Of a stretch of 64,000 bases of DNA, positions 4,254 through 48,272 are shown in pieces. This stretch comes from Candidatus Saccharimonadota bacterium. Its GTDB lineage: Bacteria > Patescibacteriota > Saccharimonadia > UBA4664. The notes under the pieces were generated by a model. It ran no database searches. It had not been told where the DNA came from and worked only from the letters and a program-made list of their open reading frames with translations. Location: NCBI GenBank assembly GCA_019352195.1, contig JACAFG010000005.1, positions 92,287-156,286 on the forward strand, read 5' to 3'. The first letter of the stretch is position 1. Each line of letters begins with the position of its first letter. The translations under genes and the position numbers were made by a program.

Positions 4254-4277
4254 AGCCCAAACTGTGGTGGGGCCCTC

Positions 4278-5698: not shown

Positions 5699-5867
5699 GG
5701 CGGAGGACCACTTTATTGGTAATGATCTATGACTGTCCGACTTTAAGAAGCCCACAGCGGTTCTTTTACAACTTGTGACATGGTTCGAATTTCTACATTT
5801 ACCAATGAAAACCAAGGCTTTTAGTCTGGTTTTAAAGCAAATAATAATCCTCACGAAGGAGGCTAAG

Positions 5868-7445
5868 ATGTCCATCAAGACATTTGCTCGTTCTCGTTGG
5901 GGTAAGGTTGCCGCGGCTCTCATCCTCATTGCCGGAATCACGATTCCAGTAACGCAGGTAATGGGCGCCACGGGCACCGATCCTAACTGTCCAAACGACG
6001 GCTACGGCCGTGACTGTAACGATAACTCGCTCATTTATGGTGGCGTTTACACCAAGACTGAGTTCCTTAACCAATTTGACGCTAACAAAGACCGCGTTGG
6101 CCACACTGACCTGCAAGCCATTTATGGCGCCCAGGGTGTGACGCACGCTAACTTTGCCTCGGCCGATACCGTCCCCGGTGTCGTTTACAAAAATGGTGAT
6201 GTTAAAGTTAACGGTGTTACCGTTGCTACCAACACCTGGTCGAGCGGCCGTCAGTACGAGGCTGGATCAATCGCCAAAGACGGCGTTTACTTCCGCCCCG
6301 AACAGGTTGCGTTTATTGCTGACAGCATTCCTGCTTGGATCAACATGAACGGCAAGACGTTTAACTACGCGGTTATCATGTCCTGTGGTAACACGGTTGT
6401 AAGTTCGGCGACGCCCTTTGGCCAGATCTACAAGCGCGTGACTGATGTTACGACAGACCCAACTCACAACTACGCAGCTGACACGAATGCCACTGCTATC
6501 ACCGTTAACCCGGGCGACACGGTTAAATACCAGGTTCGCATCGATAACAACGGTTACGGCGACATGACTAACACGGTTATGACTGACACGTTGCCAACCG
6601 GTGTCGCGCTCTCCAACGGCGGCGATGGCCACCTGGTTGCCAACTTTGGCACCGTTAAGGCCTCGAGCGCGGTTGAAGCCGACATTACCGTTAAGGTGAC
6701 AAAGACAACCGAAGGTTACATCGACAACGAAGCTTGCTTTACCGCCAGCAACGGCCAGTCGGGTTGTGACCACGCGGTTATCCACGTTGTCCCTAAAGCT
6801 ACGCCCACGCCGACTGCTACGCCTACGCCTAGCATGACGCCCACCCCAACACCAAAGCCCACAACGCCAACTCCGACGCCTACGGTCACTCCAACCCCAA
6901 CGCCAACTCCTGTAGAGGAGTTCAGCTGTGGTGGCTTGGCCATTACGCCTAAGAGCGTAGGTTCGCTCGAGTACACCTTTACGATCACTCCCGTCACGAA
7001 GAACGTTACCGTTACTGGTTACATCTACGTGGTAAAGAATGACAAAGGCGTCACGGTAGCTACGCTTACAAGCGGTGCCAATCACAATAGTGTTGGCTAC
7101 ACCTTCCCAAGCGCTGGTAATTACAGCGTAACGGGTCAGGTTGTAACGAACCGTGGTACCACGCCCGTAGTTGAGCTTTGCTCGGCTAATGTGACAGCTG
7201 GCCCAACGGTTACCCCAACTCCTACGCCCACCCCTGGTACACCTACGCCTACCCCAACCCCTTGTACTACGCCTGAAACCGGTACGACTGGTGAAGTTTG
7301 TGGAGCCTCAACTGGCCCTTCAACCTTGCCTGCAACCGGTGGTGCAGCCCTCGGTGGCATTGGCGGCATTGGTGCTATTGGGTACGCCACTCGTGCCTAC
7401 TTGCTCTCTAAGAAGTCACTTATTGACTCTCTGCGCAACAAGTAA
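5868..7445 (+). CDS. LPXTG-anchored cell-surface protein with a Pro/Thr-rich linker
   Basis: GAAGGAGG RBS. N-terminal signal peptide. PT repeats (PTPTATPTPSMTPTPTPKPTTPTPTPT). C-terminal LPATGG followed by a hydrophobic stretch and a KKS tail, the sortase sorting signal. Confidence 0.7.
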   Translation: MSIKTFARSRWGKVAAALILIAGITIPVTQVMGATGTDPNCPNDGYGRDCNDNSLIYGGVYTKTEFLNQFDANKDRVGHTDLQAIYGAQGVTHANFASADTVPGVVYKNGDVKVNGVTVATNTWSSGRQYEAGSIAKDGVYFRPEQVAFIADSIPAWINMNGKTFNYAVIMSCGNTVVSSATPFGQIYKRVTDVTTDPTHNYAADTNATAITVNPGDTVKYQVRIDNNGYGDMTNTVMTDTLPTGVALSNGGDGHLVANFGTVKASSAVEADITVKVTKTTEGYIDNEACFTASNGQSGCDHAVIHVVPKATPTPTATPTPSMTPTPTPKPTTPTPTPTVTPTPTPTPVEEFSCGGLAITPKSVGSLEYTFTITPVTKNVTVTGYIYVVKNDKGVTVATLTSGANHNSVGYTFPSAGNYSVTGQVVTNRGTTPVVELCSANVTAGPTVTPTPTPTPGTPTPTPTPCTTPETGTTGEVCGASTGPSTLPATGGAALGGIGGIGAIGYATRAYLLSKKSLIDSLRNK

Positions 7446-7665: not shown

Positions 7666-8424
7666 ATGATGAAACAAATTTCACGTCTGGTAGCAGCTCT
7701 CGTCCTGGTGGCGCTGGTAAGCCCAGTAACGGCTTTGGCCTCCACGGGCGGACGCGACTGCGACGATAACGCCTTAGTATATTGTGGTGCCTATACCCAA
7801 AGTGAGCTCAACACAAAAATTGCTCAGGGTGATACCAAAAACTCGGCGGCCGATTTGCAGGCCATTTACTCAAGCCGCGGTATGACTACGGCGGCCATTA
7901 ACGCCACCGTTGATGGCACTGTGTCGCAAGATGGCCGCGTGTTTGTGAACGGACACGTGGTGGCGACCGACGCTAAGAGCGACGGGCGCCACAAGCAGCC
8001 AACCGGTTCAGTAGCGGACGGTTCGTTGTGGCTGACGCCGACGCAGGATTCGTTCCTGAGCACATCAATTCAGGCGTTCGTTTATATGAAGAGTGGCGTC
8101 TTTCAGTGGGCCATTCTTAAGTCTTGTGGTAACACGGTGGTAGCCACACCGCCAACGACTCCGACGCCCACCCCGACGGCGACACCAACACCCAAGCCGA
8201 CGCCCACGCTAACTCCCGCGACGACGGTAACGCCGACGCCTACCCCGGTAGCGCCAACTCCTACGCCAACCCCGACCCCAACGCCCACGCCGCTGCCATC
8301 AACTGGTCCCGAAGCGCCGATTGCCGGTGTTATGGGGCTCACGGGCATCGGTTACGCTGCGCGCAGCTACTACGCCAGTCGTAACAAGTTGCGCAACGCC
8401 CTGCGCAAGATTGTGGATAAATAG
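7666..8424 (+). CDS. LPXTG-anchored cell-surface protein, paralog of 5868..7445
   Basis: Shared N-terminal domain (DC(D/N)DN(A/S)L(V/I)Y ... DLQAIY ... SCGNTVV). PT linker. C-terminal LPSTG followed by a hydrophobic stretch and an RNK tail. Confidence 0.7.
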   Translation: MMKQISRLVAALVLVALVSPVTALASTGGRDCDDNALVYCGAYTQSELNTKIAQGDTKNSAADLQAIYSSRGMTTAAINATVDGTVSQDGRVFVNGHVVATDAKSDGRHKQPTGSVADGSLWLTPTQDSFLSTSIQAFVYMKSGVFQWAILKSCGNTVVATPPTTPTPTPTATPTPKPTPTLTPATTVTPTPTPVAPTPTPTPTPTPTPLPSTGPEAPIAGVMGLTGIGYAARSYYASRNKLRNALRKIVDK

Positions 8425-22807: not shown

Positions 22808-23108
22808 GAAATTGAAGATTATCCGGATGTGTTAGCTCATTATAGTCGTCGTCGCTGATTTGGCCAACTGAAGCCAAATACGCCAGATCGGCCACGAAGA
22901 TAGCGCGAATGTCATCATAACGGGGTGATTTCTTGTCCGCCAAAATACGCAAAGTTGCAGTTGAGTCCTTAATAAACTCTTCGAGCTCGTCCTCGTTCAT
23001 CATTTCCCCTTCGGTTTTGTCGGGGTTACTGACGCATCGCGCCGGCGGGTCGACATCGGCGGCCCGATAATCTTCGAGATGCCACGCAAGTTCTGATAAT
23101 GGATTCAT
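22794..23108 (-). CDS. hypothetical acidic protein
   Basis: ORF only; its end overlaps the glyQS start by 14 nt. Confidence 0.3.
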   Translation of the reverse strand: MNPLSELAWHLEDYRAADVDPPARCVSNPDKTEGEMMNEDELEEFIKDSTATLRILADKKSPRYDDIRAIFVADLAYLASVGQISDDDYNELTHPDNLQFHAEI

Positions 23109-23842
23109 AAAGTTGCTCCTAGGGTGCCCGAACGGACGCTGTGGCCGCCGTGGGCGTCATAAAAATCATCGCAGTCGGCCAAACTGCTGGCAGCCATTTC
23201 AGATGCCCCGCCGATACGGGCGATCGTAGCGTATGGATAGTTAAACAGCAAGCGCCACAGTTTTATGGCGGGTTGTGACATCGGTGAAGCGACGGCGCCG
23301 CGGTCATCATCGCAGGTGAGGCCGCCCCGCTCGGCCTCAAACCAGTAACGCGAGTCAGCGTCCGACCGGCCACAGACGAGGCATTGGTCGAGTGACGGCT
23401 GCAGACCCGAAATGGCGAGGAGGCGGAGTTTAAACCATAGCTCGACCAGTGGACCTGACTCCCCTGCTTCGACCGCCCCCAAGGCCATGCGCGTGTGCGC
23501 GTACAGCTCGGGCTGGGGCTCACCAGGCTGGGCAAAGCGGTCCACGAGCGAGGCGATGATAAACGCCAGTCCTAGGCGCTCGTAGTTGGCCGTAAGCTCA
23601 TGCGGATACCACACGAGCCGGGCGGATGTAACTACGTCGAGGTTACGGCCGGTCGCAAGCATCAGCGCTACTTCGCCAAATGGCTCCAGATGACCACCCG
23701 ATTTGCTTTTAACGCGGCGAATACCTTTGGCAACGGCGCTAATCTTGCCATGTTCGGGCGTAATAAAGCGAATAATACGGTCGGCTTCGCCAAAATTGGT
23801 GCGGCTTAGCACGATGCCGGTAGTTTGGTATGTAGCGCCCAC
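23105..23842 (-). CDS. recO: DNA repair protein RecO
   Basis: N-terminal OB fold (GIVLSRTNFGEADRIIRFIT ... GKISAVAKGIRR) and a C-terminal Cys-containing region. GTG start with a TAGGAGGG RBS. Confidence 0.8.
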   Translation of the reverse strand: MGATYQTTGIVLSRTNFGEADRIIRFITPEHGKISAVAKGIRRVKSKSGGHLEPFGEVALMLATGRNLDVVTSARLVWYPHELTANYERLGLAFIIASLVDRFAQPGEPQPELYAHTRMALGAVEAGESGPLVELWFKLRLLAISGLQPSLDQCLVCGRSDADSRYWFEAERGGLTCDDDRGAVASPMSQPAIKLWRLLFNYPYATIARIGGASEMAASSLADCDDFYDAHGGHSVRSGTLGATL

Positions 23843-23896
23843 GCACCCTCCTATCTCAACTTATTATAGCGAGCGGGCGTATAAACGCGAAGCGAC

Positions 23897-23924
23897 CCCG
23901 GTTTCTTGCAAGAAACCGGGGTCG
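23897..23924. terminator. perfect 28-bp palindrome ACCCCGGTTTCTTGCAAGAAACCGGGGT at the boundary between GC-rich island 2 and recO
   Basis: Seen directly. A minus-strand TATAAT -10 for recO lies immediately downstream. Confidence 0.5.
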
Positions 23925-23939
23925 ATCGGACGATGTGGA

Positions 23940-24368
23940 TCAGGCGGAGACGAGCTCCGGAGATGTGACGGGCTCGGTCGTGGCGGTGGTCGGGTCGATC
24001 AGCTGTGGGAAAGCGTTGTCGTCGAACCGAGTGATATAGCGCTTGATGCGCCACGTGGTGGCGACGCCGGGGCGCTCCTCGGTGAAGTCGGTGCCGCCCT
24101 CTTTGAGGGGCAAGACCGTGGTGCCCCAGGCGGCCGCGACGATGGCGGCGAACTCCTTGTCGACGATGATGTAACCGGGGTAGACGGTGTAGTCCCCGAG
24201 GCCGAGGTCGCGCAGGGCCCGGTGACCGGTGCAATCCTGCGGCTGGCATGGGGTGGCCACCGGCAGGCTGGTGAGCTCCGGCTGGCCGAAGGCGGTGCGC
24301 AGCGCGTTGAGGTCGCGGCGCATGCCACGAATGGCGAGAGATGCGGCGGATCTGGTCATGGACAACAT
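23940..24368 (-). CDS. hypothetical protein (GC-rich island 2)
   Basis: ORF in a high-GC segment. The plus-strand RG-rich 282-aa ORF is judged an artefact. No motif recognised. Confidence 0.3.
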   Translation of the reverse strand: MLSMTRSAASLAIRGMRRDLNALRTAFGQPELTSLPVATPCQPQDCTGHRALRDLGLGDYTVYPGYIIVDKEFAAIVAAAWGTTVLPLKEGGTDFTEERPGVATTWRIKRYITRFDDNAFPQLIDPTTATTEPVTSPELVSA

Positions 24369-24456
24369 CCTTCCAACTCGGGGTGGAAATGCGGGCTCGC
24401 AAGTATGAGCTTATGGTTGTTATACGACACTGGTGTCGAAATAACAACCATAACGG

Positions 24457-24882
24457 CTAGGCGGCAGAGGGCGCTCGGTTTTCGTCGAAACCGGGCAGCA
24501 GTCCGTCGTCGAAGTTTTCAACGAACAGACTCACGTCTCGGGGCAGCTTGAAGTGAACTTTGCGGCACTGGGGGCCGTCGGCGCACTTCAACTGCTTGCT
24601 GCCCCAGCTTCGTCGTACCGCGGCAGCGTTACTGGGGTCAAGCGCGATGTCGCTCCGGGTGATGTAGAACTCACCCAAGCCGTCACAGCGCAACGTGCGG
24701 TGCACGGGGCAAATGTCGGCGCCGCGGATCGCGCCTTTGGACATGGTGCGGCGGGGCTTGGCCCCGAGAGCGGCGCGCAGCAGATTGATCTGGGTGAGCG
24801 CTGCGCGGGCGACCGCGGCTTGGTTGATCTGGATCACGCTGGTAACGGGAAGATTGACGTCAGAGGAAGATTTCATCAGCAT
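24457..24882 (-). CDS. hypothetical protein (GC-rich island 2)
   Basis: ORF with an AAAGGG RBS. Several Cys residues. No motif recognised. Confidence 0.3.
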   Translation of the reverse strand: MLMKSSSDVNLPVTSVIQINQAAVARAALTQINLLRAALGAKPRRTMSKGAIRGADICPVHRTLRCDGLGEFYITRSDIALDPSNAAAVRRSWGSKQLKCADGPQCRKVHFKLPRDVSLFVENFDDGLLPGFDENRAPSAA

Positions 24883-25393
24883 GAGCTGACCCTTTCGAGA
24901 TCTGGTCGGGGGAATTCGAACTTGGATTGTTGATACCTGGGTTGCCCTGTTTGGTAAGCCAGGTTTCAGCGCGCACTGAGTTCGGCAAAGGGACTGGCAA
25001 CCAGTTCCGGAATGCCGTCCGCGCTGTCGAAGCGCTTGATGAAACGAATGACGGCAGGCGGGTTGCGGAGCTTGACGCGTAAGCCATGCGACGTCTCGAA
25101 GAACTTCGGCACACGCTTAATCCTGGGAGGACATCAACGAGCGTGTTGTGTACCGCGCAAATGTTTTAGCGCGCAGGAATGCCTGGTCGGGGGGTCTTCA
25201 GTGGACTACCTCCCAGCGCCTGACGCAGGCGGTTGCATGCTTCGAGCATGCCGGCGGTGAGTTCGGCATTAGTACGAGATTTGAACATGACGGGCCCCAA
25301 TTGTGTCGATGTACTGGTTTGGTGGAAAAACAAAACCTGAACTAGTTATACGGTATGTGGGCTAATGAGGCAAGATTTTCTAGTGGCTATGTC

Positions 25394-38506: not shown

Positions 38507-39482
38507 CTATTTTAGCTGGTTGAGGGCGGCGTCGAGCTGCGGATCGCGGTTATTGTTGTAATCATCGGGCGTGAGCTGCACGACGACGTCAGGCGTGATC
38601 CCCTTTTGACCAATGTTGATGCCATTGGGGGTGAACCAGTGAGCTACGGTGACTTTGAGTTCACCACCGCCGGACAGATTCTTGATCTCCTGGGCCCTCG
38701 GGCAGGAATTCGCTGGCAACCGTAACACCGGCGTCGAGGAAGCCGCCCGGATTGTCACGCAGATCCAAAATGATCTTGCTGGCGCCCTGCTGCTTGAGTG
38801 ACGTCGCAGCTTTATCGATGAGCTCTGACGTATCGGAACCGAAGGTGCGAATTTGGATGTAGCCAATCGTACTGGTTTTCATACTCGAGGTGACGCTGGG
38901 CACCGTAATGTTGGCGCGGGTAATTTTGACGTCGAAGGCGGGGGCATTGCCTCGTACAATCGTCAGCGTAACTACTGTACCGGCTGTCCCACGGATCTTG
39001 GTGACGGCGGCATCGACCGTCAGTCCGCTCGTTGAGGTACCGTCGATTTTGGCAATAATATCGCTCGAACGAAGTCCTGCCGCGGCGGCTGGCGTGTCTG
39101 GGACCGGTGAAACGACGGTTAGATAGTTATTTTTGAGCCCAACTTCGGCGCCAATGCCCGATAATTGTCCATTGAGCTGATCGTTGAGGGCTTTGGCATC
39201 GGTGGGGCTCAAATAGACAGTGTACGGATCGCCGGCGGACGACACGAGACCGGCCTTGGCACCTTCAAGGGCTTTCTCGGGGTCAACGTTACCGTCGAAA
39301 TTGCTCCTCAGCATACTGTAAATTTCATTGAGGCTTGAGAAGTCGAGCTTGCTCTGATGTAGCCCCGGCAACGTAATATAATCGCGGGCAATATCACCGG
39401 CGTAGAATGAGGCCACCATAAGTACGAGTACGATGAGGCCGCCGCTTAGTTTGCGAAGGACATCGGGTTTGAGGGTTTTCAT
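38507..39482 (-). pseudogene. ctpA: S41 C-terminal processing peptidase (Ctp) remnant. It has an N-terminal signal/TM and PDZ domain (39482-38661) and a C-terminal tail (38866-38507) in different frames, with the catalytic Ser/Lys segment apparently deleted.
   Basis: Frame A ends ... ILDLRDNPGGFLDAGVTVASEFLPEG at about 38690. Frame B resumes ... LSGGGELKVTVAHWFTPNGINIGQKGITPD. The expected VVLVNxGSASASE ... FGKG block is absent in all frames. Confidence 0.55.
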
Positions 39483-40893: not shown

Positions 40894-41808
40894 CTAGAGT
40901 TTGAGATATCGGCTCATAGCTAAAATTGATGAGACGGCGCCAATAATAATTCCGAGCAGCAGTTCACCGCCTAAGATCACAAACGGATAGGATTGGAAGA
41001 AGCTGATGGTAGAACCAAAGTCGATATAACTAGCCACCTTGGGCGCACTACTCAAGAGAACTAGATACGAGAAGGTTACGGCAACGATGGCCGCGATAAT
41101 TCCGTAAAGGGCCGCCTCAAAAATAAACGGTCCGCGAATAAACCATTTGGTGGCACCGACAAGCTTCATGATTTCGATTTCATCGCGCCGGGTAAAAATG
41201 GCCATTCTGATGGTGTTGAAAATGATCAGTGTCGAAATGACGACAAAGACAATACTGGCTGCTAAGCCCGCAGTTTTGAAGAAGTTAGCAAAGTGAACAA
41301 TACGGTCGATGGTTTCTTTGCGGCCGCCCGTGTAGCTTGGTGGGGCGGTGGGATCGAGCAGACTTTGGTTGGCCTGCTGACTCACGACTGCTTCGATAGC
41401 GTCGAGATGTTTGGGATCGATGGCTTTTACCTCAATTGAAGACGGCAAAACATTGCCAGCTGTATCGAGCGCCTGGATGAGCGATGGCTTATCTTTGTTT
41501 TGGTTCTTATAGTTAGCAACTGCCTGATCAGGGCTGACATACATGAGGCTCGCGACGTTACCGCTGCTTTTGAGGGCGGCTTCGAAAGCAGCCACCTGAT
41601 CGGGCGTCGTGTTATTGTTGAGGAAAATCGAGACGTCAATTTTATCGGTCACCCCTTTGATGGTAGCGGTAAGGGCGAGGCTTGAGATAAACGACACAAT
41701 GACGATGATAAGGGTCACCGTCATAACGGCGGTAGCAGCAGTTGAGAGCCAGGCGTTACGCAGAAAGTTGCGGATGCCGCCGTGAAGTATTCGCCAAAAT
41801 TGCAGCAT
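40894..41808 (-). CDS. ftsX: cell division ABC transporter permease FtsX
   Basis: Four-TM FtsX topology with a large extracytoplasmic loop. Overlaps the ftsE stop. Confidence 0.85.
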   Translation of the reverse strand: MLQFWRILHGGIRNFLRNAWLSTAATAVMTVTLIIVIVSFISSLALTATIKGVTDKIDVSIFLNNNTTPDQVAAFEAALKSSGNVASLMYVSPDQAVANYKNQNKDKPSLIQALDTAGNVLPSSIEVKAIDPKHLDAIEAVVSQQANQSLLDPTAPPSYTGGRKETIDRIVHFANFFKTAGLAASIVFVVISTLIIFNTIRMAIFTRRDEIEIMKLVGATKWFIRGPFIFEAALYGIIAAIVAVTFSYLVLLSSAPKVASYIDFGSTISFFQSYPFVILGGELLLGIIIGAVSSILAMSRYLKL

Positions 41809-42551
41809 TAGTTTTGTGCCTCAACCCCAGTGGCAATGCCCTTGGTAGCGCCCTTGAGGGTCGTTGGGTTTTCTAAGGTGTAGCGTCCCTGTTCATCATC
41901 GCGGATGATGCGGCCGCGGTTGATCGTGATAACACGTCGTTTGAGGGCGTTTACAATTTCTTTGTTGTGCGTAGTGAGCAGCACGGTGGTACCAAAACGG
42001 TTAATTTTGAGCAAAAGCTCGATAATTTGCCAGGCATTGCCGGGGTCGAGGTTACCGGTTGGTTCGTCGGCGATAAGAATTTTGGGCTGGCGAATGAGCG
42101 CCCGGGCAATGGCGACACGCTGACGCTCACCACCTGACAGTTCGTGCGGGTACATGTTTTGCTTGGCCGATAGGCCAACGAGGGTGAGCATCTTGGGTAC
42201 AGCGCGCTTAATTTCGCGCTGGCGGGCCCCCGAAACTTCGAGCGCAAAGGCGACATTTTCACCTACGCGGCGGTTGGGTAGGAGTTTAAAATCTTGAAAC
42301 ACCACCCCAATGCGACGGCGCACGAGCGGCACGTCTTTCGCGGTAATCGTGTCGTAATCAAGTCCACCGACAATGATTTTGCCTGAACTATGCGTTTCTT
42401 CGCGCGTCAGAAGCTTGATGAGCGTACTCTTGCCGGCGCCACTGGAACCCACAATAGTCACAAATTCTTTAGGCTCAATATGAAGATTGAGACCCGATAA
42501 CGCCGTTTGGCCGTTCGGATATACTTTGGTAACTCGATCGAATAGAATCAT
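41808..42551 (-). CDS. ftsE: cell division ABC transporter ATP-binding protein FtsE
   Basis: Walker A GSSGAGKST. ABC signature LSGGERQRVAIARAL. Walker B ILIADEPT. About 247 aa. Confidence 0.9.
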   Translation of the reverse strand: MILFDRVTKVYPNGQTALSGLNLHIEPKEFVTIVGSSGAGKSTLIKLLTREETHSSGKIIVGGLDYDTITAKDVPLVRRRIGVVFQDFKLLPNRRVGENVAFALEVSGARQREIKRAVPKMLTLVGLSAKQNMYPHELSGGERQRVAIARALIRQPKILIADEPTGNLDPGNAWQIIELLLKINRFGTTVLLTTHNKEIVNALKRRVITINRGRIIRDDEQGRYTLENPTTLKGATKGIATGVEAQN

Positions 42552-42606
42552 TACCGTCTCATCTTATCATAGAGTGAACTTGGTTGTGGTTAGGATAGGC
42601 GGTACA

Positions 42607-42645
42607 TGATTGAGGACGATCCTGGTGACAAGATCGTCCTCAATT
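42607..42645. promoter_or_regulatory. perfect 13-bp inverted repeat ATTGAGGACGATC-(10 nt)-GATCGTCCTCAAT at the junction between the ftsE upstream region and GC-rich island 5
   Basis: Seen directly. Lies about 60 bp upstream of the ftsE start codon. Confidence 0.4.
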
Positions 42646-43040
42646 GTCGTGAGAGACGGGCGATGATTTTGCGGCTTATTTCATTAGCCGCGGGGTGGCC
42701 TCAACTGGCTGGGACGGGCCCGGTTGGGCGGCGGACCGATGCTGGCCATGGCTTCGAGGGCACGGTTACCTCGATGGTTGCGTTGGGCGCCGGTGTGTCG
42801 AGTAATCGATTTCCGGCCGGCTCGGCCAAATAAGGTAGGCCGTCGGAGTTCTGGCCGGCGATGCCGGCGAAGGTCAGATGACGCAAGAAGCTGCCGACTT
42901 CGACGGCGAACTGGCTGGCGGTCGTGTCAGTCCCCTCGTCCCCAATTGCTACCAGAAACTTCGTCCGGCATTTGCGGCAGCGCCGATCGACTGATGGCAC
43001 ACGTATGCCGCACGCCCCACACGTGTAGGGACCGCCAACA

Positions 43041-43156
43041 CGAAATTAAGCGCGCTGTGCCCAAGATGCTCACCCTCGTTGGCCTATCGGCCAAGCAAAA
43101 CATGTACCCGCACGAACTGTCAGGTGGTGAGCGTCAGCGTGTCGCCATTGCCCGGG
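43041..43156 (+). repeat. 116-bp inverted duplicate (115/116 identical) of an internal ftsE segment (42101-42216, encoding EIKRAVPKMLTLVGLSAKQNMYPHELSGGERQRVAIAR)
   Basis: Direct sequence comparison. The single difference is a synonymous T/C (GTA vs GTG, Val). Confidence 0.85.
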
Positions 43157-43200
43157 GCAATTATTATCCCAAACATGTCATACTAGTTAAAGGTAGCCCA

Positions 43201-43569
43201 ATGAGCGAATACCCAAACCATATACGAGCGCAGTTTGATGAGGCGGTAACGTCGAGTCCCGACGCGCTGCTGTGTATTCTCAACCCGGCGGGCCAGCTGC
43301 TCGCGGTCTCGCCTTCAGTCGAGCCGATTCATGGCTATCTCCCGTCTGAAGTGGTTGGGACTAACTTTTCCATCTACTTTGATGCCGATGACGTAAATCA
43401 TCTAAGGTTAGTTATCCAAGATTGTATTCTAACCGGGCAATCCATCGAAGCAAGCCGCCGCGTTAAGCACAAAACTGGCGCCTACCGGCGAATGCGTGGG
43501 GCTGCCACCAAACTTGAGGATGATGCTACAGGTGATGCCTATATTCTCTCAATTGCTCGGCCGGTTTAG
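43201..43569 (+). CDS. small stand-alone PAS-domain protein
   Basis: About 122 aa. A PAS-like fold is inferred from ... LCILNPAGQLLAVSPSVEPIHGYLPSEVVGTNFSIYFDADD ... The ORF track fuses it to upstream junk (42724..). Confidence 0.45.
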   Translation: MSEYPNHIRAQFDEAVTSSPDALLCILNPAGQLLAVSPSVEPIHGYLPSEVVGTNFSIYFDADDVNHLRLVIQDCILTGQSIEASRRVKHKTGAYRRMRGAATKLEDDATGDAYILSIARPV

Positions 43570-43682
43570 CTGGCGTTCGCAGCAAAAAACTACGCGAACT
43601 ACCCGGCCAAGTGGTACAAATAAGCATAATTGTCAGCAAAAAGTAACATTATTAGCCATATTGCAGTTATCAGGTACAAATT

Positions 43683-43713
43683 CATTGACACAAATGTCAA
43701 TGTGTCCTAACAT
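43683..43713 (+). promoter_or_regulatory. promoter with a palindromic operator: CATTGACA-caaa-TGTCAATG overlapping a TTGACA -35; TAACAT -10 lies 17 nt downstream
   Basis: Lies in a locally AT-rich spacer inside the GC-rich island, 75 nt upstream of the TasA-like gene. Confidence 0.45.
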
Positions 43714-43787
43714 ATCTTGGTGTCGTCTATCCAGGCGATCGTTCCACCACGTGTTCGAGGAATCGAGCACGCGACAAAAGGAGTCCC

Positions 43788-44462
43788 ATGTCCAGTTCCA
43801 AGCCCAGCGTGAACCCCGATGCCAAGCCCAAGCGGAAGCGTCGCGGTCTCGTAGCCCTCTTCTGTTCCGTCTTGCTCTGCGGCGGCCTCTTCGTGTTCCT
43901 CGGTTAGGCCAGCACCGGTGCCTACTTCAGCGACACCAAGGCCGGCACCGTCTCCGGTACCGTCGGATCCATCAAGATCACGGGTACCGGCGGCTCGGGC
44001 GCCGACAATCTCTCGGTCAGCTTCGATCGGCTGCTGCCGGGTGAGAACCAGTCGGTGACGACGTCATGGACGAACACCGGCCTCAACAAAGAAGACGTCT
44101 TCGTGGTGTTCTCGAACCCTGACGCGCTGCACGCGCTGAACAACCTCGGGACCTACGGTGAGGTCCACATCGTGGGCAACAACGGACCGGTCTTCGACAG
44201 CGCCAACCTCAACGACAATTCGGCGTCATGTGTCACGTTCTCGCCGTCGGGATGTTGGCCGGTCGCCAAGAGCTACAAGATCGGCACCAACATCACCCCC
44301 GGAGGCACCGGATCCTGGACGTTCACCTTCGGGTACGCCTCCAAGCTGTCGACTCAGTCCGCCGCCGGCGGTGGCGATTGGAACTCCTACCCCTTGGGTG
44401 GGCCGACCAACTCCGGTCTTCCGTACCAGCTGGTCGCGGTCCAGCCGGGCCAGACCCCGTAG
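43788..44462 (+). pseudogene. TasA/camelysin-family secreted protein with a SipW-cognate-class signal peptide, interrupted by a single in-frame TAG at 43905-43907
   Basis: AAAGGAG RBS. MSSSKPSVNPDAKPKRKRRGLVALFCSVLLCGGLFVFLG-TAG-ASTGAYFSDTKAGTVSG ... (the AxFSD(T)E motif). Same frame throughout. Confidence 0.6.
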
Positions 44463-44520
44463 TACCACTTAGGTGGCGCGGGCAACGTCTGTCCGCGCCA
44501 CCTAGGTCCTACCACAAGGA

Positions 44521-45042
44521 GTGGACATAGTGCCAAAATGGCTCAGTATCACCGTCAGTGCCCTCGTCTTTGCTGCCATGGTGGTAGTAAGCCTGTCGCT
44601 TCTGATGTCACACCACCTCTATGTGGTGCGCACGGGCTCAATGGGAAACACCTACCCGCCCAAGACGCTCGTCGTCGTCAAGGTTGGTGAGTACCATGTG
44701 GGACAAGTTATCTCGTTCCGCGAGCATGGCGATATCACCACCCACCGCCTCCTCGGCTTCAACGCCGACGGTACGCTCATCACCAAAGGCGACGCCAACG
44801 ACACTCCCGATCCCTGGACTCTCCACCGCTCCGACATTATCGGTGGCGTCACTGGCTCGGTTCGCGGCCTCGGCTACTGGTTCATCTATGCGAAGAACCC
44901 CTACGGCCTCGGCTCCATGGTTTGCTTAGTCCTCGCGATCTGGCTGTCCATCAAACTTTACCGCGAGATGACTCCTGAGACCGACGCAGAGTCCGACCCG
45001 CCCGACAATTCGCTCGAGGATCTCATCCTGAGCTCCTCCTGA
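44521..45042 (+). CDS. sipW: SipW-type (archaeal/ER-type, S26B) signal peptidase I
   Basis: N-terminal TM helix. VVRTGSMGNTYPPKTLVVV, then VGQVISFREHGDITTHRL and ITKGDANDTPDPW, compared from memory with B. subtilis SipW (SGSSMEP ... VTHRVIEV ... ITKGDNN ... D.W). C-terminal TM helix. GTG start with an AAGGAG RBS. Confidence 0.75.
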   Translation: MDIVPKWLSITVSALVFAAMVVVSLSLLMSHHLYVVRTGSMGNTYPPKTLVVVKVGEYHVGQVISFREHGDITTHRLLGFNADGTLITKGDANDTPDPWTLHRSDIIGGVTGSVRGLGYWFIYAKNPYGLGSMVCLVLAIWLSIKLYREMTPETDAESDPPDNSLEDLILSSS

Positions 45043-45105
45043 CCACCAGCCCTCGTCCGCAACTAGTTTTGCGCGGACGGGGGCTTCGTCTATTTTGCAG
45101 TTAGG

Positions 45106-45795
45106 CTACCACAACCAAAGTAAAATGTCTGCACCCCCAGAAGGAGTGCAGGCATTTGATTTTCGGACCTGACAAGACCAGTCGGTCATGCAGATATGCG
45201 GCACGCCAGCGATAATCGCACGCTTGGGGTTACCAGCCGCCGTCCACTCGTCGTGGGTGATGAGGATGGAAACGCTGCCCGCCTGGGCATTACAATCTGG
45301 AACTTCCCAGACGGGGGCGCTTACCTTGGCAATGACAAACCCATCGAGAAAGCGTCGCACCGGCGCGTAGCCGGAAGCGGCCCAGTCAACTCGTTGGATG
45401 TAGTGGTACTGATCGACGCCCGGCGAGCTGAAGAACACCTCGGCCGTCGATGTCATGTACCGCAGCACGTCGCTGTCGGGAATCCATCTCACTGTGTGAA
45501 TCGTCGGGTTACCCCAAGCCACCCGTTGGGCGTGGGACATATATGTCGCATGGCCACCGACCACCCGGTAGGCCCGTGCGTTCCACGAGTAGCGGACGTA
45601 GGATCCGGACGGCGTTGCAGCTTTGACAGTCTGAGCAAAGACAACTGACACAGTGGCAGGGCTGGCAGCCACGGGTGTGGCCGCCGAAGCCGTGCCAACC
45701 GTAGCAAAAACCACGATGCCCAGTGCGAGGATGAGACTGCTCGCCAACGTGACGAGGCGGTTCCTCCAGGGTATGGGAGTACGAACAGAAGACAT
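45106..45795 (-). CDS. secreted hypothetical protein (signal peptide; Cys/Trp-rich)
   Basis: N-terminal signal peptide MSSVRTPIPWRNRLVTLASSLILALGIVVFATVGTASA. No motif recognised. Confidence 0.4.
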   Translation of the reverse strand: MSSVRTPIPWRNRLVTLASSLILALGIVVFATVGTASAATPVAASPATVSVVFAQTVKAATPSGSYVRYSWNARAYRVVGGHATYMSHAQRVAWGNPTIHTVRWIPDSDVLRYMTSTAEVFFSSPGVDQYHYIQRVDWAASGYAPVRRFLDGFVIAKVSAPVWEVPDCNAQAGSVSILITHDEWTAAGNPKRAIIAGVPHICMTDWSCQVRKSNACTPSGGADILLWLW

Positions 45796-45834
45796 GATTG
45801 CCTTTCTTGAGGCAGTCGGGAACCTCCATTCCGT

Positions 45835-46840
45835 TTTGAATCAGGACACTCTCCCGCAAACTGACACCATGAAGAAAGCACCCAAACTGTCGGATGCGGA
45901 GCGGTCAGAAATTGGCACACTTTTAAGTAAAAAAGTATTTACTTCGGGACATTGCCCGGGTATTGGGGCGCAGCCCCAATACCGTGTCCGACGAGATTAA
46001 GCGCAATAGTGTGTGGGATCGGTATGAGGTCGAGTCGGCGAAACGCAAAAGCTACTATGTGCGTAAATATGCCAAGTATCAGGGCAAGAAGATTCAGGAA
46101 AATATGGATCTGCGGTGGTACATCATCGTGCGGCTTCAGGCGCATTGGAACCCAGATGAAATTGCTGGAGCCATAAGCAGCTGTTTTACGCCTCCAAAAC
46201 TGCCATTTACGACTGGCTACGTTCCGAATGGGGCCAGCGTTACTGCCAGTTTCTGGACTCACAGCGACATCGCCCGCGCAAGCGCCAGAAGAAGGCGGTT
46301 CGTCCCATGATTACAGATAGGGTGAGCATTGTAGAACGGCCTTTGGGCGCCACAAATCGCACCCGGTATGGCCACTGGGAGGGTGACACGGTTGTGTCCG
46401 GAAAACGCACCGGTAGCACGGCGGCGTTGGTGGTGACCGTGGAGCGCAAAACACGGCTCGTGGCCGCGAGAACAATACCCGACTTGAGGCCGGCGAGCTT
46501 TAATAGCGCCATCCAGGACGTCCAGACTGGCGTAACAAAGATGCGCAGTCTGAGTTTAGACAACGGCATTGAGAACCGTTGGCACGGCCAGCTGAGCGTC
46601 CCAGCTTACTTGTGTGCTCCGTACTCCAGTTGGCAAAAAGGCAGTGTAGAAAATGCTAACAAAATGATACGGCGGTACCTGCCCAAGGGCCTGGATCTAG
46701 TCACCGTGACACCGACTCGCTTACAAGATATTATTTAGATAATTAGCAACAAACCCAGGAGGATCCTGGGGTATAAATCGGCCACACAAGTGGCCACAGA
46801 GAAAGGAATATTACGAGAGCAAGTGTCCTGATTGGGGGCT
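45835..46840 (+). mobile_element. IS30-family insertion sequence remnant (~1.0 kb) with imperfect terminal inverted repeats sharing AATCAGGACACT
   Basis: IR core at 45839-45850 and its reverse complement at 46822-46833. A transposase ORF lies between them. Confidence 0.65.
45869..46738 (+). pseudogene. IS30-family DDE transposase, split across three frames
   Basis: HTH segment LGRSPNTVSDEIKRN. WNPDEIAG. TAIYDWL ... HWEGDTV ... ERKTR ... DNGIEN ... SWQKGSVENANKMIRRYLPKG. Frame change at the A6 run near 45925-45935 and a second change near 46165-46175. Confidence 0.7.
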
Positions 46841-47174
46841 GAATGCAGCTTTTTTCGGGTGATATTGCAGCAACTACGTCGGCGTAGTCACTACGACTTA
46901 CAACCATGTCTTCTCCTCGGGCTAGGGACGGATTTGACGACACTTTGTCGTCAATGGGAACTGGGACGAGCGGGACTCTGTCTGGTGTCGGGGCACGTTG
47001 GGTGGACCCATTCTGCCGGGATGATGGGCGGCAGGCCGAGCACGTCGCGCAGGGGGCGGTCGATTCCTGTCCAGTCGGACAGTTTGGGACGGGACATGAA
47101 GACTCCAAGAGGTCGAAGGACGGCGATCAACGTGGAACTAGCGATATTATGAAATAACATATTAATAATTACAA

Positions 47175-48272
47175 CTAATCGTCGCTACCGGAGCCTATTT
47201 GGCCGTTGAGATAAGCTTCAATAAACAAATCGAGATTGCCGTCTAAGACGCCGGCGGCATCATTCGTTTCGGCCCCGGTGCGGACATCTTTGACCTTAGT
47301 GTAGGGATGGAGCACATAATTGCGGATTTGTTGGCCCCACTCGGCGGCTTTATCGGCACCGCGCAATTGGCCAAGTTCGGCGGCCTGTTCCGCTTCGAGG
47401 CGCGCCGCTAAACGGGCTTTCAGCACGGCCATGGCTTTGTCTTTGTTTTGTAGCTGTGAGCGCTCGTTTTGAATCGCCACCACCGTATTGGTCGGTATGT
47501 GGGTGATGCGGACAGCTGAATCAGTCGTGTTAACGCTTTGGCCGCCTTTGCCGCTCGAGCGATACACATCGATCCGCAAGTCTTTGGGGTCGAGTTCGAT
47601 ATCGGCGGTGCTGCGGTCGAGTTGAGGTAGTACCTCAACCAGCGCAAATGAAGTTTGGCGTAAATCGGCCGAATTAAATGGGCTTTGGCGAACTAGACGA
47701 TGAACGCCGGCTTCGCCTTTGAGTTTGCCAAAGGCAAACGGCCCGGAGATTTCAATAGTGGCGCTCTTAATTCCCGCTTCCTCACCAGGCGAGGTTGATA
47801 GAATTTCGGCGCTAAAATTCTGCGAGGTCGCCCATCGCACGTACATGCGTTGGAGCATTTCGGTCCAGTCTTGCGCGTCGGTACCGCCGGTACCGGCATG
47901 GAGCTCGATAATGGCGCCGGTCCGATCATGCGGGCCTGATAGCTTGAGCTCAAATTCGCGTGCTTCATAGTCGGTTTTGAGGCGCGAGTAGGTAGCTTCG
48001 GCGGTTTCGGCGTAGCCCGGGATATCGGTGACGCCAAATAATTCATCACTGACTTGGCTTTCGAGCGAGCGCCAACTTTCGACATGTTTCGTGAGTTCGG
48101 CGAGGCGCTGCGAAGTTTTAGCCGCGGCTTGAGGATCATTCCAAAAATCGGGCGCTTGGGTGGCCGCGCTGAGCTTGGCGATCTCGGTAGCGTCGGCAGG
48201 TATACCAAGTTTAGCGATGGCGGATTGAATTCGCTCCAACAGATCAGTGTAGCGGTGAATAAGGTCTTGCAT
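47175..48272 (-). CDS. prfB: peptide chain release factor 2 (uninterrupted ORF; no programmed +1 frameshift site)
   Basis: SPF tripeptide motif and GGQ (SSGKGGQSVNTTDSAVRITH). 365 aa in one frame. Confidence 0.88.
   Translation of the reverse strand: MQDLIHRYTDLLERIQSAIAKLGIPADATEIAKLSAATQAPDFWNDPQAAAKTSQRLAELTKHVESWRSLESQVSDELFGVTDIPGYAETAEATYSRLKTDYEAREFELKLSGPHDRTGAIIELHAGTGGTDAQDWTEMLQRMYVRWATSQNFSAEILSTSPGEEAGIKSATIEISGPFAFGKLKGEAGVHRLVRQSPFNSADLRQTSFALVEVLPQLDRSTADIELDPKDLRIDVYRSSGKGGQSVNTTDSAVRITHIPTNTVVAIQNERSQLQNKDKAMAVLKARLAARLEAEQAAELGQLRGADKAAEWGQQIRNYVLHPYTKVKDVRTGAETNDAAGVLDGNLDLFIEAYLNGQIGSGSDD

What the first reader, a model, noticed from the sequence alone, without database searches (positions are those of the whole stretch)
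43788..44462. Single in-frame amber codon inside the signal peptide of the TasA-like gene
From the ATG at 43788 (good RBS), one frame runs uninterrupted for 224 codons except for a TAG at 43905-43907. The TAG falls in the hydrophobic core of the signal peptide, just before the AYFSDTK SipW-recognition motif. It is either a very recent inactivating point mutation, a sequencing error, or (least likely) stop read-through. The partner peptidase, promoter and RBS are all intact, which argues against long-standing pseudogene status.
Basis: seen in the sequence. Interest (0 to 1): 0.6.

Follow-up and report, generated by a model that had tools for sequence, protein, structure and literature searches.

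The report
Nonsense-mutated TasA-like gene in Saccharibacteria
A gene for a secreted fibre-type protein, which this Saccharibacteria genome appears to have acquired from Actinomycetota, has one premature stop codon in its export signal; this is most likely an ordinary, recent knock-out mutation, not recoding.

Summary
The frame from ATG 43788 to the stop at 44460-62 is open for 224 codons except for TAG at 43905-07. The flanking 39 and 184 codons align in frame with more than 260 full-length homologues (205-235 aa).

The TAG is in the GenBank scaffold (Ca. Saccharibacteria MAG GCA_017884045.1) and in an independent Logan assembly of run SRR11551193. TAG is a normal stop here: it ends 21 of 53 long ORFs, including ftsX, prfB and this gene. 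Recoding is therefore excluded. No in-frame start that could supply a signal peptide follows the TAG.

The protein is a distant TasA relative. A profile comparison with TasA gives E 2e-5 over the cleavage motif and donor strand, and the best fold match is the TasA fibre. It sits in a two-gene cassette with an intact SipW-type peptidase. The family is mainly actinomycetotal, and the gene's GC3 is 0.85 against about 0.6 for native genes.

The gene shows no other damage, so the mutation is recent. The 4.6-kb island around it is decaying: it holds a dead IS30, an ftsE fragment and a PAS fragment. Relatives are also inactivated in another Saccharibacteria MAG (frameshifts) and in a Terrabacter isolate (TGG to TAG).

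Verdict: an ordinary recent pseudogene, or a loss-of-function allele. Interest is low.

The parts
43685..43713 (+). Sigma-70-like promoter candidate (TTGACA, 17 nt spacer, TAACAT) in a 44.5% GC upstream region
   Evidence: Consensus scan gives 10 of 12 matches. Similar TTGACA / TATAAT-like boxes lie upstream of the cassette in L047, L049 and L029 (read from the sequences printed). Function is inferred, not shown.
43778..43783 (+). Ribosome-binding site AAGGAG, 4 nt before the ATG
   Evidence: Read directly from the sequence.
43788..43904 (+). First 39 codons of the TasA-like gene. They encode the charged n-region (KPKRKRRG) and the hydrophobic region (LVALFCSVLLCGGLFVFLG) of a SipW-type signal peptide.
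   Evidence: ORF listing. Collinear with the signal peptides of the homologues.
43905..43907 (+). In-frame amber codon TAG (codon 40), at P6 relative to the predicted cleavage site A45|Y46
   Evidence: The aligned codon is TCC (Ser) in the two closest relatives and GTA, GCA or GTC in others. The cleavage site is inferred from the profile alignment with TasA.
43908..44462 (+). Remaining 184 codons plus the terminal TAG. They encode the end of the signal peptide (ASTGA), the predicted donor strand (YFSDTKAGTVSGTVGSIKIT...) and the beta-sandwich body of the TasA-like protein. GenBank annotates only the 135-aa tail (44055-44462, HJC99_05000).
   Evidence: for homology and conservation. for the model (pLDDT 68.5), whose best PDB match is the TasA fibre 8aur_A (E 1e-4). 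for the hhalign comparison with TasA (E 1.9e-5).
44467..44507 (+). Perfect 18-bp GC-rich hairpin between the TasA-like gene and the peptidase gene. It has no T-run and is a likely intercistronic attenuator or mRNA stabiliser.
   Evidence: Fold energy is -40.7 kcal/mol with z = -4.9. Comparable long hairpins lie at the same position in L013, L029, L047, L049, L004 and L040 despite unrelated sequence.
44530..45042 (+). SipW-type (archaeal/ER-type) signal peptidase I gene, apparently intact. It is 170 aa from GTG 44530; the longest ORF starts at 44521.
   Evidence: TIGR02228 gives E 1.4e-13 at 51.0 bits, against a cut-off of 51.85. SipW NF046067 gives E 2e-8. The TGSM, HR and GDA motifs are invariant across 7 cassette peptidases.
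45106..45795 (-). 229-aa predicted secreted protein of unknown function inside the island, with a classical ASA-type signal peptide. It is listed as context, not as a shown part of the system.
   Evidence: ORF listing. No family hit. GC3 is 0.665.
45821..46851 (+). Dead IS30-family element. It has imperfect terminal inverted repeats at 45821-45850 and 46822-46851. The transposase reading (45869-46831) is broken by two frameshifts and an in-frame TAG at 46736-46738.
   Evidence: Inverted repeats. Three-frame translation. The joined reading matches NF033563 IS30 transposase at E 2.2e-52 over the full model and across the stop.
43028..43156 (-). 129-nt inverted copy (97% identical, 4 mismatches) of an internal piece of the adjacent ftsE gene (42101-42229). 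It marks the left side of the island.
   Evidence: The Logan contig begins at 43127, 30 nt (k-1) inside this copy.
43066..43569 (+). Truncated PAS-domain ORF, a remnant of a sensor gene, fused in reading to the ftsE fragment
   Evidence: PAS_3 E 5e-8 and TIGR00229 E 6e-12. Called as a 167-aa gene in the GenBank record.

Best explanation
The TAG is a genuine single-base nonsense mutation that has recently inactivated a horizontally acquired gene.

The gene encodes a distant TasA-type secreted subunit. In its intact form the pre-protein would be exported. The co-encoded SipW-type signal peptidase would cut it between A45 and Y46 (TGA|YFSD, equivalent to TasA TWA|AFND). The freed N-terminal strand would then insert into the next subunit to build an extracellular fibre. 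These steps are inferred by analogy with TasA.

The two-gene cassette (subunit, hairpin, peptidase) is typical of Actinomycetota. It has entered Saccharibacteria-type genomes several times. Here it lies in a 4.6-kb island between ftsE and prfB, next to an IS30 remnant.

With TAG at codon 40, translation ends after a 39-residue signal-peptide stub. The next in-frame start (GTG 44055) would give a 135-aa fragment with no signal peptide and no donor strand. No functional secreted product is therefore made.

The ancestral codon was probably a small or hydrophobic residue one step from TAG. TCG (Ser) or TTG (Leu) fit best; TGG and CAG are also possible. Nothing else in the gene or its partner has decayed, so the event is recent. 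It may still be a segregating loss-of-function allele in the population.
For: Shown:
- The TAG is present in the window, in the GenBank scaffold (0 mismatches over 15,769 nt) and in an independent Logan assembly (0 mismatches over 2,722 nt).
- TAG terminates 21 of 53 long non-overlapping ORFs in the window, including ftsX, prfB and this gene itself.
- Both halves align in frame with full-length homologues, and every homologue has a sense codon at that position.
- No ATG, GTG or TTG occurs in frame between the TAG and 44055.
- All 33 invariant columns are retained. Only 3 of 62 columns that are at least 90% conserved differ, within the 0-7 range of intact homologues.
- The peptidase is intact.
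- Foreign origin: GC3 is 0.853 against 0.57-0.62 for neighbouring housekeeping genes. Homologues are overwhelmingly from Actinomycetota. In loci labelled Saccharibacteria or Patescibacteria the gene is more GC-rich than its flanks, whereas in most Actinomycetota loci (29 of 32) it is less GC-rich than its flanks. The Saccharibacteria-type sequences fall in three separate places in a neighbour-joining tree.
- The island is decaying: a dead IS30 with 2 frameshifts and 1 in-frame stop, an inverted ftsE fragment and a PAS fragment.
- The family is recurrently lost. The copy in Saccharibacteria MAG L040 is split over three frames. The copy in Terrabacter sp. NPDC000476 has TGG changed to TAG, plus changes at otherwise conserved positions.
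- No intact near-identical allele exists among 5.8 billion clustered proteins or in JGI metagenome contigs.

TasA relationship:
- hhalign gives E 1.9e-5 over TasA residues 23-79.
- The best Foldseek match in the PDB is the TasA fibre 8aur_A, at E 1e-4.
- 13 of 40 homologues weakly match PF12389.
- The TasA donor strand is residues 28-38, directly after the SipW site (PMC9674648).
Against: - No reads were available, so base-call quality and the allele frequency at 43906 are unknown.
- The two assemblies probably derive from the same read set.
- The intactness of everything except one codon would also fit continued function through read-through, or a consensus or sequencing error.
- The open downstream frame is weak evidence for recency on its own. 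At GC3 = 0.85, stop codons arise slowly.
- Zero changes in 33 invariant columns bounds post-inactivation divergence only to about 9% or less (my estimate).
- Fibre formation and SipW dependence of this family are inferred by analogy and have not been demonstrated.
Confidence: 0.82

Rival explanations
1. The TAG is a sequencing, consensus or assembly error, or the consensus of a mixed population in which the dominant functional allele carries a sense codon. On this view the gene is really intact.
For: - Apart from this one codon the gene, promoter, RBS, hairpin and peptidase are all intact.
- The window's assembly is not flawless. It lacks 193 nt plus a 10-N gap that the GenBank scaffold has inside the S41 peptidase gene at 38693/38694.
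- The genome is a metagenome-assembled genome, so strain mixtures are possible.
Against: - Two different assemblers give the same base, with 0 mismatches over 2.7 kb.
- The site is not in a homopolymer or repeat.
- Substitution errors in a short-read consensus are rare (general knowledge).
- The neighbouring IS30 and relatives elsewhere show that real inactivating mutations are common in this island and this family.
Confidence: 0.08
2. The TAG is read through by near-cognate decoding or by a suppressor tRNA. A low level of full-length, exportable pre-protein would then still be made. Because the codon lies in the cleaved signal peptide, almost any inserted residue would be tolerated.
For: - The stop lies in a region removed from the mature protein, where any small or hydrophobic residue is seen in homologues.
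- There is no downstream decay.
- A second in-frame TAG occurs in the same island, in the IS30 remnant.
Against: - TAG is the commonest stop codon of bona fide genes in the window.
- No tRNA gene of any kind lies in the window.
- No Rfam element was found at E <= 1 across 42500-47200.
- No outstanding structure lies immediately 3' of the TAG (z = -2.2 only).
- The IS30 with the other TAG also has two frameshifts, so it is simply dead.
- Basal UAG read-through in bacteria is very low (general knowledge).
Confidence: 0.03
3. The organism, or the donor, reads TAG as a sense codon, through genetic-code reassignment or pyrrolysine.
For: Some candidate-phyla-radiation lineages use altered codes, but that recoding is UGA, not UAG (general knowledge). 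Two in-frame TAGs lie in one island.
Against: - TAG ends 21 of 53 long ORFs at lengths typical of their families: RF2 at 365 aa, FtsX at 304 aa, and the TasA-like gene itself at the position where its homologues end.
- Homologues from Actinomycetota have ordinary sense codons at the site.
- No tRNA gene lies in the window.
Confidence: 0.005
4. The island is an assembly chimera. It would be actinomycetotal DNA mis-joined into a Saccharibacteria contig through repeats, so the 'pseudogene in Saccharibacteria' context would be wrong. The TAG itself would still be real.
For: - The Logan contig ends at both repeat boundaries, the ftsE copy at 43127 and the IS30 inverted repeat at 45848, so it does not bridge to ftsE or prfB.
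- The cassette is GC-rich.
Against: - The Logan contig starts with the last 30 nt (k-1) of a 97-nt stretch identical to this genome's own ftsE. The island is therefore joined in the assembly graph to Saccharibacteria sequence.
- The 218-nt upstream region is 44.5% GC with a sigma-70-type promoter. This resembles the upstream regions in other Saccharibacteria-type loci and differs from the Terrabacter locus at 60.6%.
- Intact cassettes sit inside long contigs labelled Saccharibacteria or Patescibacteria elsewhere: L013 in 690 kb and L029 in 172 kb.
Confidence: 0.05

Closest known systems
Bacillus subtilis TasA with its dedicated signal peptidase SipW (tapA-sipW-tasA operon)
   Same: - A secreted beta-sandwich subunit is encoded next to an archaeal/ER-type signal peptidase.
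- The cleavage-site motif has an aromatic residue at P2' (TGA|YFSD against TWA|AFND).
- The N-terminal 60 residues (cleavage motif, donor strand, 'NL-PG' and 'N-G' strands) align with TasA 23-79 at hhalign E 1.9e-5.
- The best PDB fold match is the TasA fibre 8aur_A.
- TasA polymerises by donor-strand exchange of residues 28-38 (PMC9674648).
- F at P2' and the SipW dependence of TasA are described in the abstract of PMC10269814.
   Different: - The window protein has no significant Pfam or NCBIfam TasA/camelysin match.
- It is shorter (about 179 aa mature against 234) and about 14% identical in the structural alignment.
- The gene order is subunit then peptidase, with no TapA-like gene. The cassette has two genes in every locus inspected.
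- It occurs in Actinomycetota and Saccharibacteria, not Bacillota.
- In this window it is broken by a stop codon.
SipW-dependent-type signal peptide proteins (NCBIfam TIGR04088) and the camelysin/CalY family (Pfam PF12389, Peptidase_M73)
   Same: The family carries the same N-terminal motif class. 5 of 27 homologues touch TIGR04088 (best E 0.002), 3 of 27 touch the TasA model NF046066, and 13 of 40 touch PF12389 (best E 8e-5).
   Different: All these matches are weak, far weaker than a family member would be expected to give. The window protein itself matches none of the models. This is an unnamed sister family, not a member.
Archaeal bundling pilin AbpA and other distant TasA-like fibre subunits
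   Same: They are examples of TasA homologues so divergent that only structure or profile comparison detects them. They assemble by donor-strand complementation (PMC9245690). The CanA and CfaB donor-strand pilins follow TasA in the fold search.
   Different: AbpA lacks a dedicated SipW gene, whereas this family always has one. No structure or filament has been observed for this family.
Ordinary nonsense-mutation pseudogenes in horizontally acquired islands
   Same: A single premature stop lies in a foreign-composition gene, beside a degraded insertion sequence and gene fragments. Related copies are independently inactivated (L040 by frameshifts, L016 by TGG to TAG).
   Different: Nothing of substance. 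The only unusual point is that the stop lies in the signal peptide and the rest of the cassette is still pristine.

Membership tests
TasA / camelysin family (Pfam PF12389; NCBIfam NF046066) | Significant match to the family HMM | tested here: not met
   The window protein, tested as the read-through form and as the mature part, has no Pfam hit at E <= 0.05-0.1 and no NCBIfam TasA hit. Among homologues, 13 of 40 give weak PF12389 hits (best E 8.3e-5) and 3 of 27 give weak NF046066 hits.
TasA / camelysin family (fold level) | Jelly-roll or beta-sandwich body with an N-terminal donor strand directly after the cleavage site | tested here: inconclusive
   The AlphaFold2 model has pLDDT 68.5 and pTM 0.70, and its N-terminal 20 residues are disordered. 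The top Foldseek PDB hit is the TasA fibre 8aur_A (E 1e-4, probability 1.0) but TM is only 0.45.
SipW-dependent secretion cassette | Adjacent archaeal/ER-type signal peptidase I with its catalytic motifs | tested here: met
   TIGR02228 gives E 1.4e-13 at 51.0 bits, just under the 51.85 cut-off. SipW NF046067 gives E 2e-8. TGSM, HR and GDA are invariant in 7 cassette peptidases. The pair is syntenic in every locus inspected.
SipW-dependent secretion cassette | SipW-cognate signal peptide motif (TIGR04088) with an aromatic residue at P2' | tested here: inconclusive
   The window N-terminus, with X at the stop, does not reach TIGR04088. 5 of 27 homologues match weakly. The TGAYFSD motif is nearly invariant and aligns with TasA TWAAFND.
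SipW-dependent secretion cassette | TapA-like accessory or nucleator gene in the operon | tested here: not met
   No third conserved gene accompanies the pair in the window, L004, L013, L029, L047 or L049. The 229-aa neighbour has no family match. No dedicated TapA model was run.
TasA-type fibre | Forms extracellular filaments by donor-strand exchange | not testable with these tools
   This needs expression and electron microscopy of an intact family member.
Pseudogene by nonsense mutation | A premature in-frame stop where full-length homologues have a sense codon, with homology continuing in frame on both sides | tested here: met
Pseudogene by nonsense mutation | The stop codon is a functional terminator in this genome, and no alternative start rescues the product | tested here: met
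   TAG ends 21 of 53 long ORFs. The next in-frame start is GTG 44055, which lies beyond the signal peptide and the donor strand.
Pseudogene by nonsense mutation | The stop is real in the reads, and fixed or at least the major allele | not testable with these tools
   Only assemblies were available. Two assemblies agree, but there was no read-level data.
Stop-codon reassignment or pyrrolysine decoding of UAG | TAG is absent or rare as a terminator of conserved genes; a dedicated tRNA(CUA) is present | tested here: not met
   TAG is the most frequent terminator in the window. The window has no tRNA genes. The rest of the genome was not available.
Programmed stop-codon read-through | A stimulatory 3' context or structure, and conservation of the stop in relatives | tested here: not met
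   No relative has a stop at this codon. The 3' fold has z = -2.2 only. There is no Rfam match.

The most novel reading that the evidence does not exclude
The amber codon may not be a dead end but a leaky or population-level switch. Because it lies in the cleaved signal peptide, occasional read-through would restore a fully normal mature fibre subunit. So would reversion, or co-existing sense alleles in the population. On this reading, an epibiotic Saccharibacterium could keep a host-derived (Actinomycetota-type) TasA-like adhesion or matrix cassette at very low or heterogeneous expression. The broader point would be that Saccharibacteria repeatedly borrow, use and discard this cassette from the phylum that contains their known hosts.
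Probability: 0.05. Interest if true: 0.55.

Novelty: new member of a known kind. Interest (0 to 1): 0.2.

Why it matters
For the amber codon itself, very little is at stake. It is an ordinary, recent loss-of-function mutation. It should be annotated as a pseudogene rather than as a 135-aa 'hypothetical protein'.

The context has modest value.
- It identifies an unnamed, mainly actinomycetotal two-gene cassette: a distant TasA-like subunit, a conserved intercistronic hairpin and a SipW-type peptidase.
- The cassette has entered Saccharibacteria-type genomes at least three times and is repeatedly inactivated there.
- Cultivated Saccharibacteria live attached to Actinomycetota hosts (general knowledge). 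A host-type surface-fibre cassette in the epibiont is therefore a plausible lead for attachment or matrix biology.
- That lead rests on the intact copies (L013, L029, L047, L049), not on this broken one.

Tried and rejected
- **Genetic-code change.** Rejected. TAG ends 21 of 53 long ORFs.
- **Local suppressor or pyrrolysine tRNA.** The window has no tRNA genes.
- **Read-through signal.** The RNA 3' of the TAG is not outstanding (z = -2.2). There is no Rfam hit across 42500-47200.
- **Rescue by a downstream start or another frame.** The overlapping 182-aa ORF 43496-44044 is an off-frame artefact of GC-rich coding sequence. The first in-frame start after the TAG is 44055.
- **Search for a near-identical intact allele.** The protein search returned only the 135-aa self hit, then relatives at no more than 68% identity. 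An exact DNA pattern with NNN at the codon found 0 matches in JGI metagenome contigs. The ancestral codon therefore could not be read directly.
- **Sequence search against solved structures** with the family profile found nothing meaningful; the best hit was auracyanin at E 0.56.
- **Test for a pattern of in-frame TAGs.** I scanned all frames for long open stretches split by one stop. The only other candidate in a real-looking gene is 3189-4253 / 4278-5369. A homology search returned only the self hit (HJC99_04795, 354 aa), so this is undecidable. They are probably two adjacent orphan genes that happen to share a frame.
- **Taxonomic assignment of the closest relatives (L047, L049).** Comparing their neighbouring genes with the window and other Saccharibacteria loci found no shared housekeeping genes. 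Only their mid to low flank GC (0.52 and 0.47) argues against Actinomycetota.
- **Literature search** for the accessions, or for SipW/TasA in Saccharibacteria, found nothing specific.
Full report
**1. The observation**

The sequence shows ATG at 43788, preceded by AAGGAG at 43778-43783. TAG lies at 43905-43907 as codon 40. The same frame then stays open to the terminal TAG at 44460-44462, giving 39 + 1 + 184 = 224 codons.

The read-through translation finds 264 proteins at E <= 1e-3. Apart from the truncated self entry, the best hit is 3.5e-74 at 63% identity, and nearly all hits are 205-235 aa. In a 27-sequence alignment, the 39 residues before the stop form a signal peptide (KPKRKRRG, then LVALFCSVLLCGGLFVFLG) collinear with those of the homologues. 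The invariant TGAYFSD motif begins three codons after the stop.

**2. Where the window comes from, and whether the base is real**

The 135-aa tail ORF (44055-44462) is GenBank protein HJC99_05000 of a Candidatus Saccharibacteria MAG (GCA_017884045.1, scaffold JABBYD010000014.1). The scaffold is identical to the window over 15,769 nt around the gene, TAG included.

A contig assembled independently by the Logan project from run SRR11551193 equals window 43127-45848 with no mismatch. It also carries the 39-codon stub ending at the TAG. I could not inspect reads, so allele frequency is unknown. An assembler artefact is nevertheless unlikely.

**3. Is TAG a stop in this organism?**

Among 53 long, non-overlapping ORFs in the window, 21 end in TAG, 19 in TAA and 13 in TGA. 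The TAG-terminated ORFs include ftsX, prfB (365 aa, the normal RF2 length) and the TasA-like gene itself.

The window has no tRNA gene and the island has no Rfam match. The RNA 3' of the TAG shows no remarkable structure (z = -2.2). Code reassignment is excluded, and nothing supports programmed read-through.

No ATG, GTG or TTG lies in frame between the TAG and 44055. Any re-initiated product would therefore lack both the signal peptide and the N-terminal strand.

**4. What the gene is**

The window protein matches no Pfam family. Its only NCBIfam hit is a weak, below-cut-off match to an unrelated domain (invert_tail, E 0.0015). The family is nevertheless a distant TasA relative, on four grounds.

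- 13 of 40 homologues touch Pfam PF12389 (camelysin/TasA; best E 8e-5). 5 of 27 touch TIGR04088 (SipW-dependent signal peptide) and 3 of 27 touch the TasA model.
- A profile of the family aligns with B. subtilis TasA residues 23-79 at E 1.9e-5.
- An AlphaFold2 model of the mature part (pLDDT 68.5, pTM 0.70) has the TasA fibre 8aur_A as its only PDB match below E 1e-3. Donor-strand pilins (CfaB, CanA, PapE) follow.
- The downstream gene (44530-45042) is an archaeal/ER-type signal peptidase of the SipW kind (TIGR02228 E 1.4e-13). Its TGSM, HR and GDA motifs are invariant across seven cassette peptidases.

In TasA, the residues directly after the SipW site (28-38) are the donor strand that polymerises the fibre (PMC9674648). 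TasA has F at P2' and needs SipW (PMC10269814 abstract). By analogy, the intact protein would be exported, cut at A45|Y46 and polymerised through its new N-terminus. That mechanism is inferred, not shown.

The TAG sits at P6, the C-terminal edge of the hydrophobic region.

**5. The cassette and its origin**

In every locus inspected the subunit gene is followed by the peptidase gene, with no third conserved partner. These loci are Terrabacter L004, Saccharibacteria L013, Patescibacteria UBA5147 L029, L040, L047 and L049. Between the two genes there is always a long perfect GC-rich hairpin. Its sequence is unrelated between loci but its position is the same. In the window it has 18 bp at 44467-44507, with -40.7 kcal/mol and z = -4.9.

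Of 44 loci found in species-representative genomes, almost all are Actinomycetota: Terrabacter, Cryobacterium, Glaciihabitans, Thermoleophilia, Gaiellaceae, Acidimicrobiales and others. Three are labelled Saccharibacteria or Patescibacteria.

The window gene has GC 0.634 and GC3 0.853, against GC3 0.57-0.62 for ftsX, ftsE, prfB and other native genes. In the Saccharibacteria-type loci the gene is always more GC-rich than its flanks. In 29 of the 32 Actinomycetota-type loci it is less GC-rich than its flanks.

In a neighbour-joining tree without support values, the window groups with L047 and L049, which come from genomes of about 47-52% GC. L013 and L029 fall elsewhere among Actinomycetota. 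This suggests at least three transfers into Saccharibacteria-type genomes.

Upstream of the cassette, the Saccharibacteria-type loci have regions of 35-51% GC with good sigma-70 boxes. The window has TTGACA-17-TAACAT at 43685-43713. This suggests the cassette was expressed in its new hosts.

**6. The island**

Between ftsE (41808-42551, minus strand) and prfB (47175-48272, minus strand) lie 4.6 kb of foreign or scrambled DNA. The contents are:

- A 129-nt inverted copy of an internal ftsE piece, 97% identical (43028-43156).
- A truncated PAS-domain ORF.
- The cassette.
- A 229-aa secreted protein of unknown function.
- An IS30 element. Its transposase reading needs two frameshifts and contains an in-frame TAG at 46736-46738. 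The joined reading matches NF033563 at E 2e-52 across the stop.

The large housekeeping genes of the window are uninterrupted. The damage is therefore specific to the island and not a sign of a poor assembly.

The Logan contig begins exactly k-1 = 30 nt inside the stretch identical to ftsE. This ties the island to Saccharibacteria sequence in the assembly graph and argues against a chimera.

**7. Age of the mutation**

The window protein keeps all 33 invariant columns of a 40-sequence alignment. It deviates at 3 of 62 columns that are at least 90% conserved (S for T, V for G, V for T). Intact homologues deviate at 0-7 such columns. At each of the three positions, some intact homologue also departs from the consensus.

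There is thus no detectable decay apart from the stop. With zero hits in 33 invariant sites, my rough bound on divergence since inactivation is about 9% or less. The peptidase, hairpin, RBS and promoter are intact.

The codon aligned with the TAG is TCC (Ser) in the two closest relatives and GTA, GCA or GTC in others. A one-step ancestor such as TCG or TTG is plausible, but it cannot be determined.

**8. Precedents**

- In Saccharibacteria MAG L040 the subunit gene is split over three reading frames while its peptidase is intact.
- In the isolate Terrabacter sp. NPDC000476 the conserved W codon TGG of 'EDVWVVF' is TAG, and several conserved positions have changed.

Loss of this subunit gene is thus recurrent.

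No intact near-identical allele of the window gene exists in the protein collection or in JGI metagenome contigs.

**9. Verdict**

The best explanation is a genuine, recent nonsense mutation, possibly still polymorphic, in a horizontally acquired TasA-like gene within a decaying island (confidence about 0.8).

The rivals are:
- Consensus or sequencing error, or a minor-allele consensus (about 0.08).
- Functional read-through (about 0.03).
- Code reassignment (below 0.01).
- Assembly chimera, which is a separate issue affecting only the context (about 0.05).

The finding is real but ordinary. The mildly interesting by-product is the unnamed actinomycetotal TasA-like/SipW cassette and its repeated gain and loss in Saccharibacteria.

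Noticed in passing
window 45821-46851 (TAG at 46736-46738): An IS30-family element with imperfect terminal inverted repeats. Its transposase reading is broken by two frameshifts and a second in-frame TAG inside the conserved domain. The joined reading matches NF033563 at E 2e-52. It is a dead insertion sequence flanking the cassette.
   Followed up: yes
window 43028-43156 versus 42101-42229: A 129-nt inverted duplicate (4 mismatches) of an internal fragment of the neighbouring ftsE gene. It is fused in an ORF (42724-43569) to a truncated PAS-domain remnant, which points to past rearrangement at the ftsE-prfB junction.
   Followed up: partly
window 44467-44507; L013 ~6596-6640, L029 ~6585-6618, L047 ~929-962, L049 ~7744-7782, L004 ~6539-6579, L040 ~6479-6521: Every TasA-like/SipW cassette examined has a long, near-perfect GC-rich hairpin (about 11-18 bp stem) just after the subunit gene's stop codon and before the peptidase gene. 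The sequences differ between loci. It is probably an intercistronic attenuator or mRNA stabiliser that sets the subunit-to-peptidase ratio.
   Followed up: partly
L016 (Terrabacter sp. NPDC000476), codon at 6163-6165: The orthologue in this isolate genome has TAG where its sister strains have TGG (W of EDVWVVF). It also has substitutions at otherwise conserved positions (ALHQLNTLG, WNANPQG). This is an independent, older amber pseudogene in the same family.
   Followed up: partly
L040 (Ca. Saccharibacteria bin.23) 5830-6450: The TasA-like gene is split over three reading frames by two frameshifts, while the downstream SipW-type gene (6513-7103) is intact. The contig name suggests a long-read assembly, so indel errors are not excluded.
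   Followed up: partly
window 3189-5369 (+), TAG at 4251-4253: A 63-67% GC region holds two protein-like orphan ORFs (354 aa and about 347-363 aa; GC3 0.77 and 0.91; the second is Pro-rich and repetitive). They share a frame and are separated by one TAG plus 8 codons. The 730-aa ORF on the opposite strand looks like an antisense artefact (GC1 0.83, Arg/Gly-rich). A homology search found only the self entry HJC99_04795, so I cannot say whether this is one gene with an in-frame TAG or two genes.
   Followed up: partly
window 38693/38694 (L001 4437-4639): The GenBank scaffold has a 10-N gap plus 193 nt inside the S41 (CtpA-like) peptidase gene that the window lacks. The gene is 392 aa in the record but appears as a 273-aa ORF in the window. 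This is an assembly-version discrepancy 5 kb from the finding.
   Followed up: partly
L047 150-200, L049 6970-7010, L029 5830-5860: Strong sigma-70-type promoters (TTGACA ... TATAAT, TATGAT or TATAAG) lie in AT-rich DNA upstream of the GC-rich cassette in Saccharibacteria-type loci. L047 and L049 also share a short motif (GTCRTTCGTCCGAGYGAC) between promoter and start. L047 1-66 looks like the 3' part of a tRNA cut by the contig end, but ARAGORN did not call it.
   Followed up: no
window 47175-48272 (-): prfB (RF2, with the SPF motif) is a single uninterrupted 365-aa ORF. It therefore seems to lack the programmed +1 frameshift found in many bacterial prfB genes. It ends in TAG.
   Followed up: no
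window 23000-25000: A second GC-rich patch (0.59-0.62) lies around recO (23105-23842, minus strand). Its adjacent ORFs have no family match (23703-24551, 24553-24933) and may be off-frame artefacts or further foreign DNA.
   Followed up: no
window 45106-45795 (-): A 229-aa protein with a classical signal peptide (…TVGTASA|ATP) has no Pfam match and only one very weak NCBIfam hit (E 0.083). It lies between the peptidase gene and the IS30 remnant. Whether it came in with the cassette is unknown.
   Followed up: no
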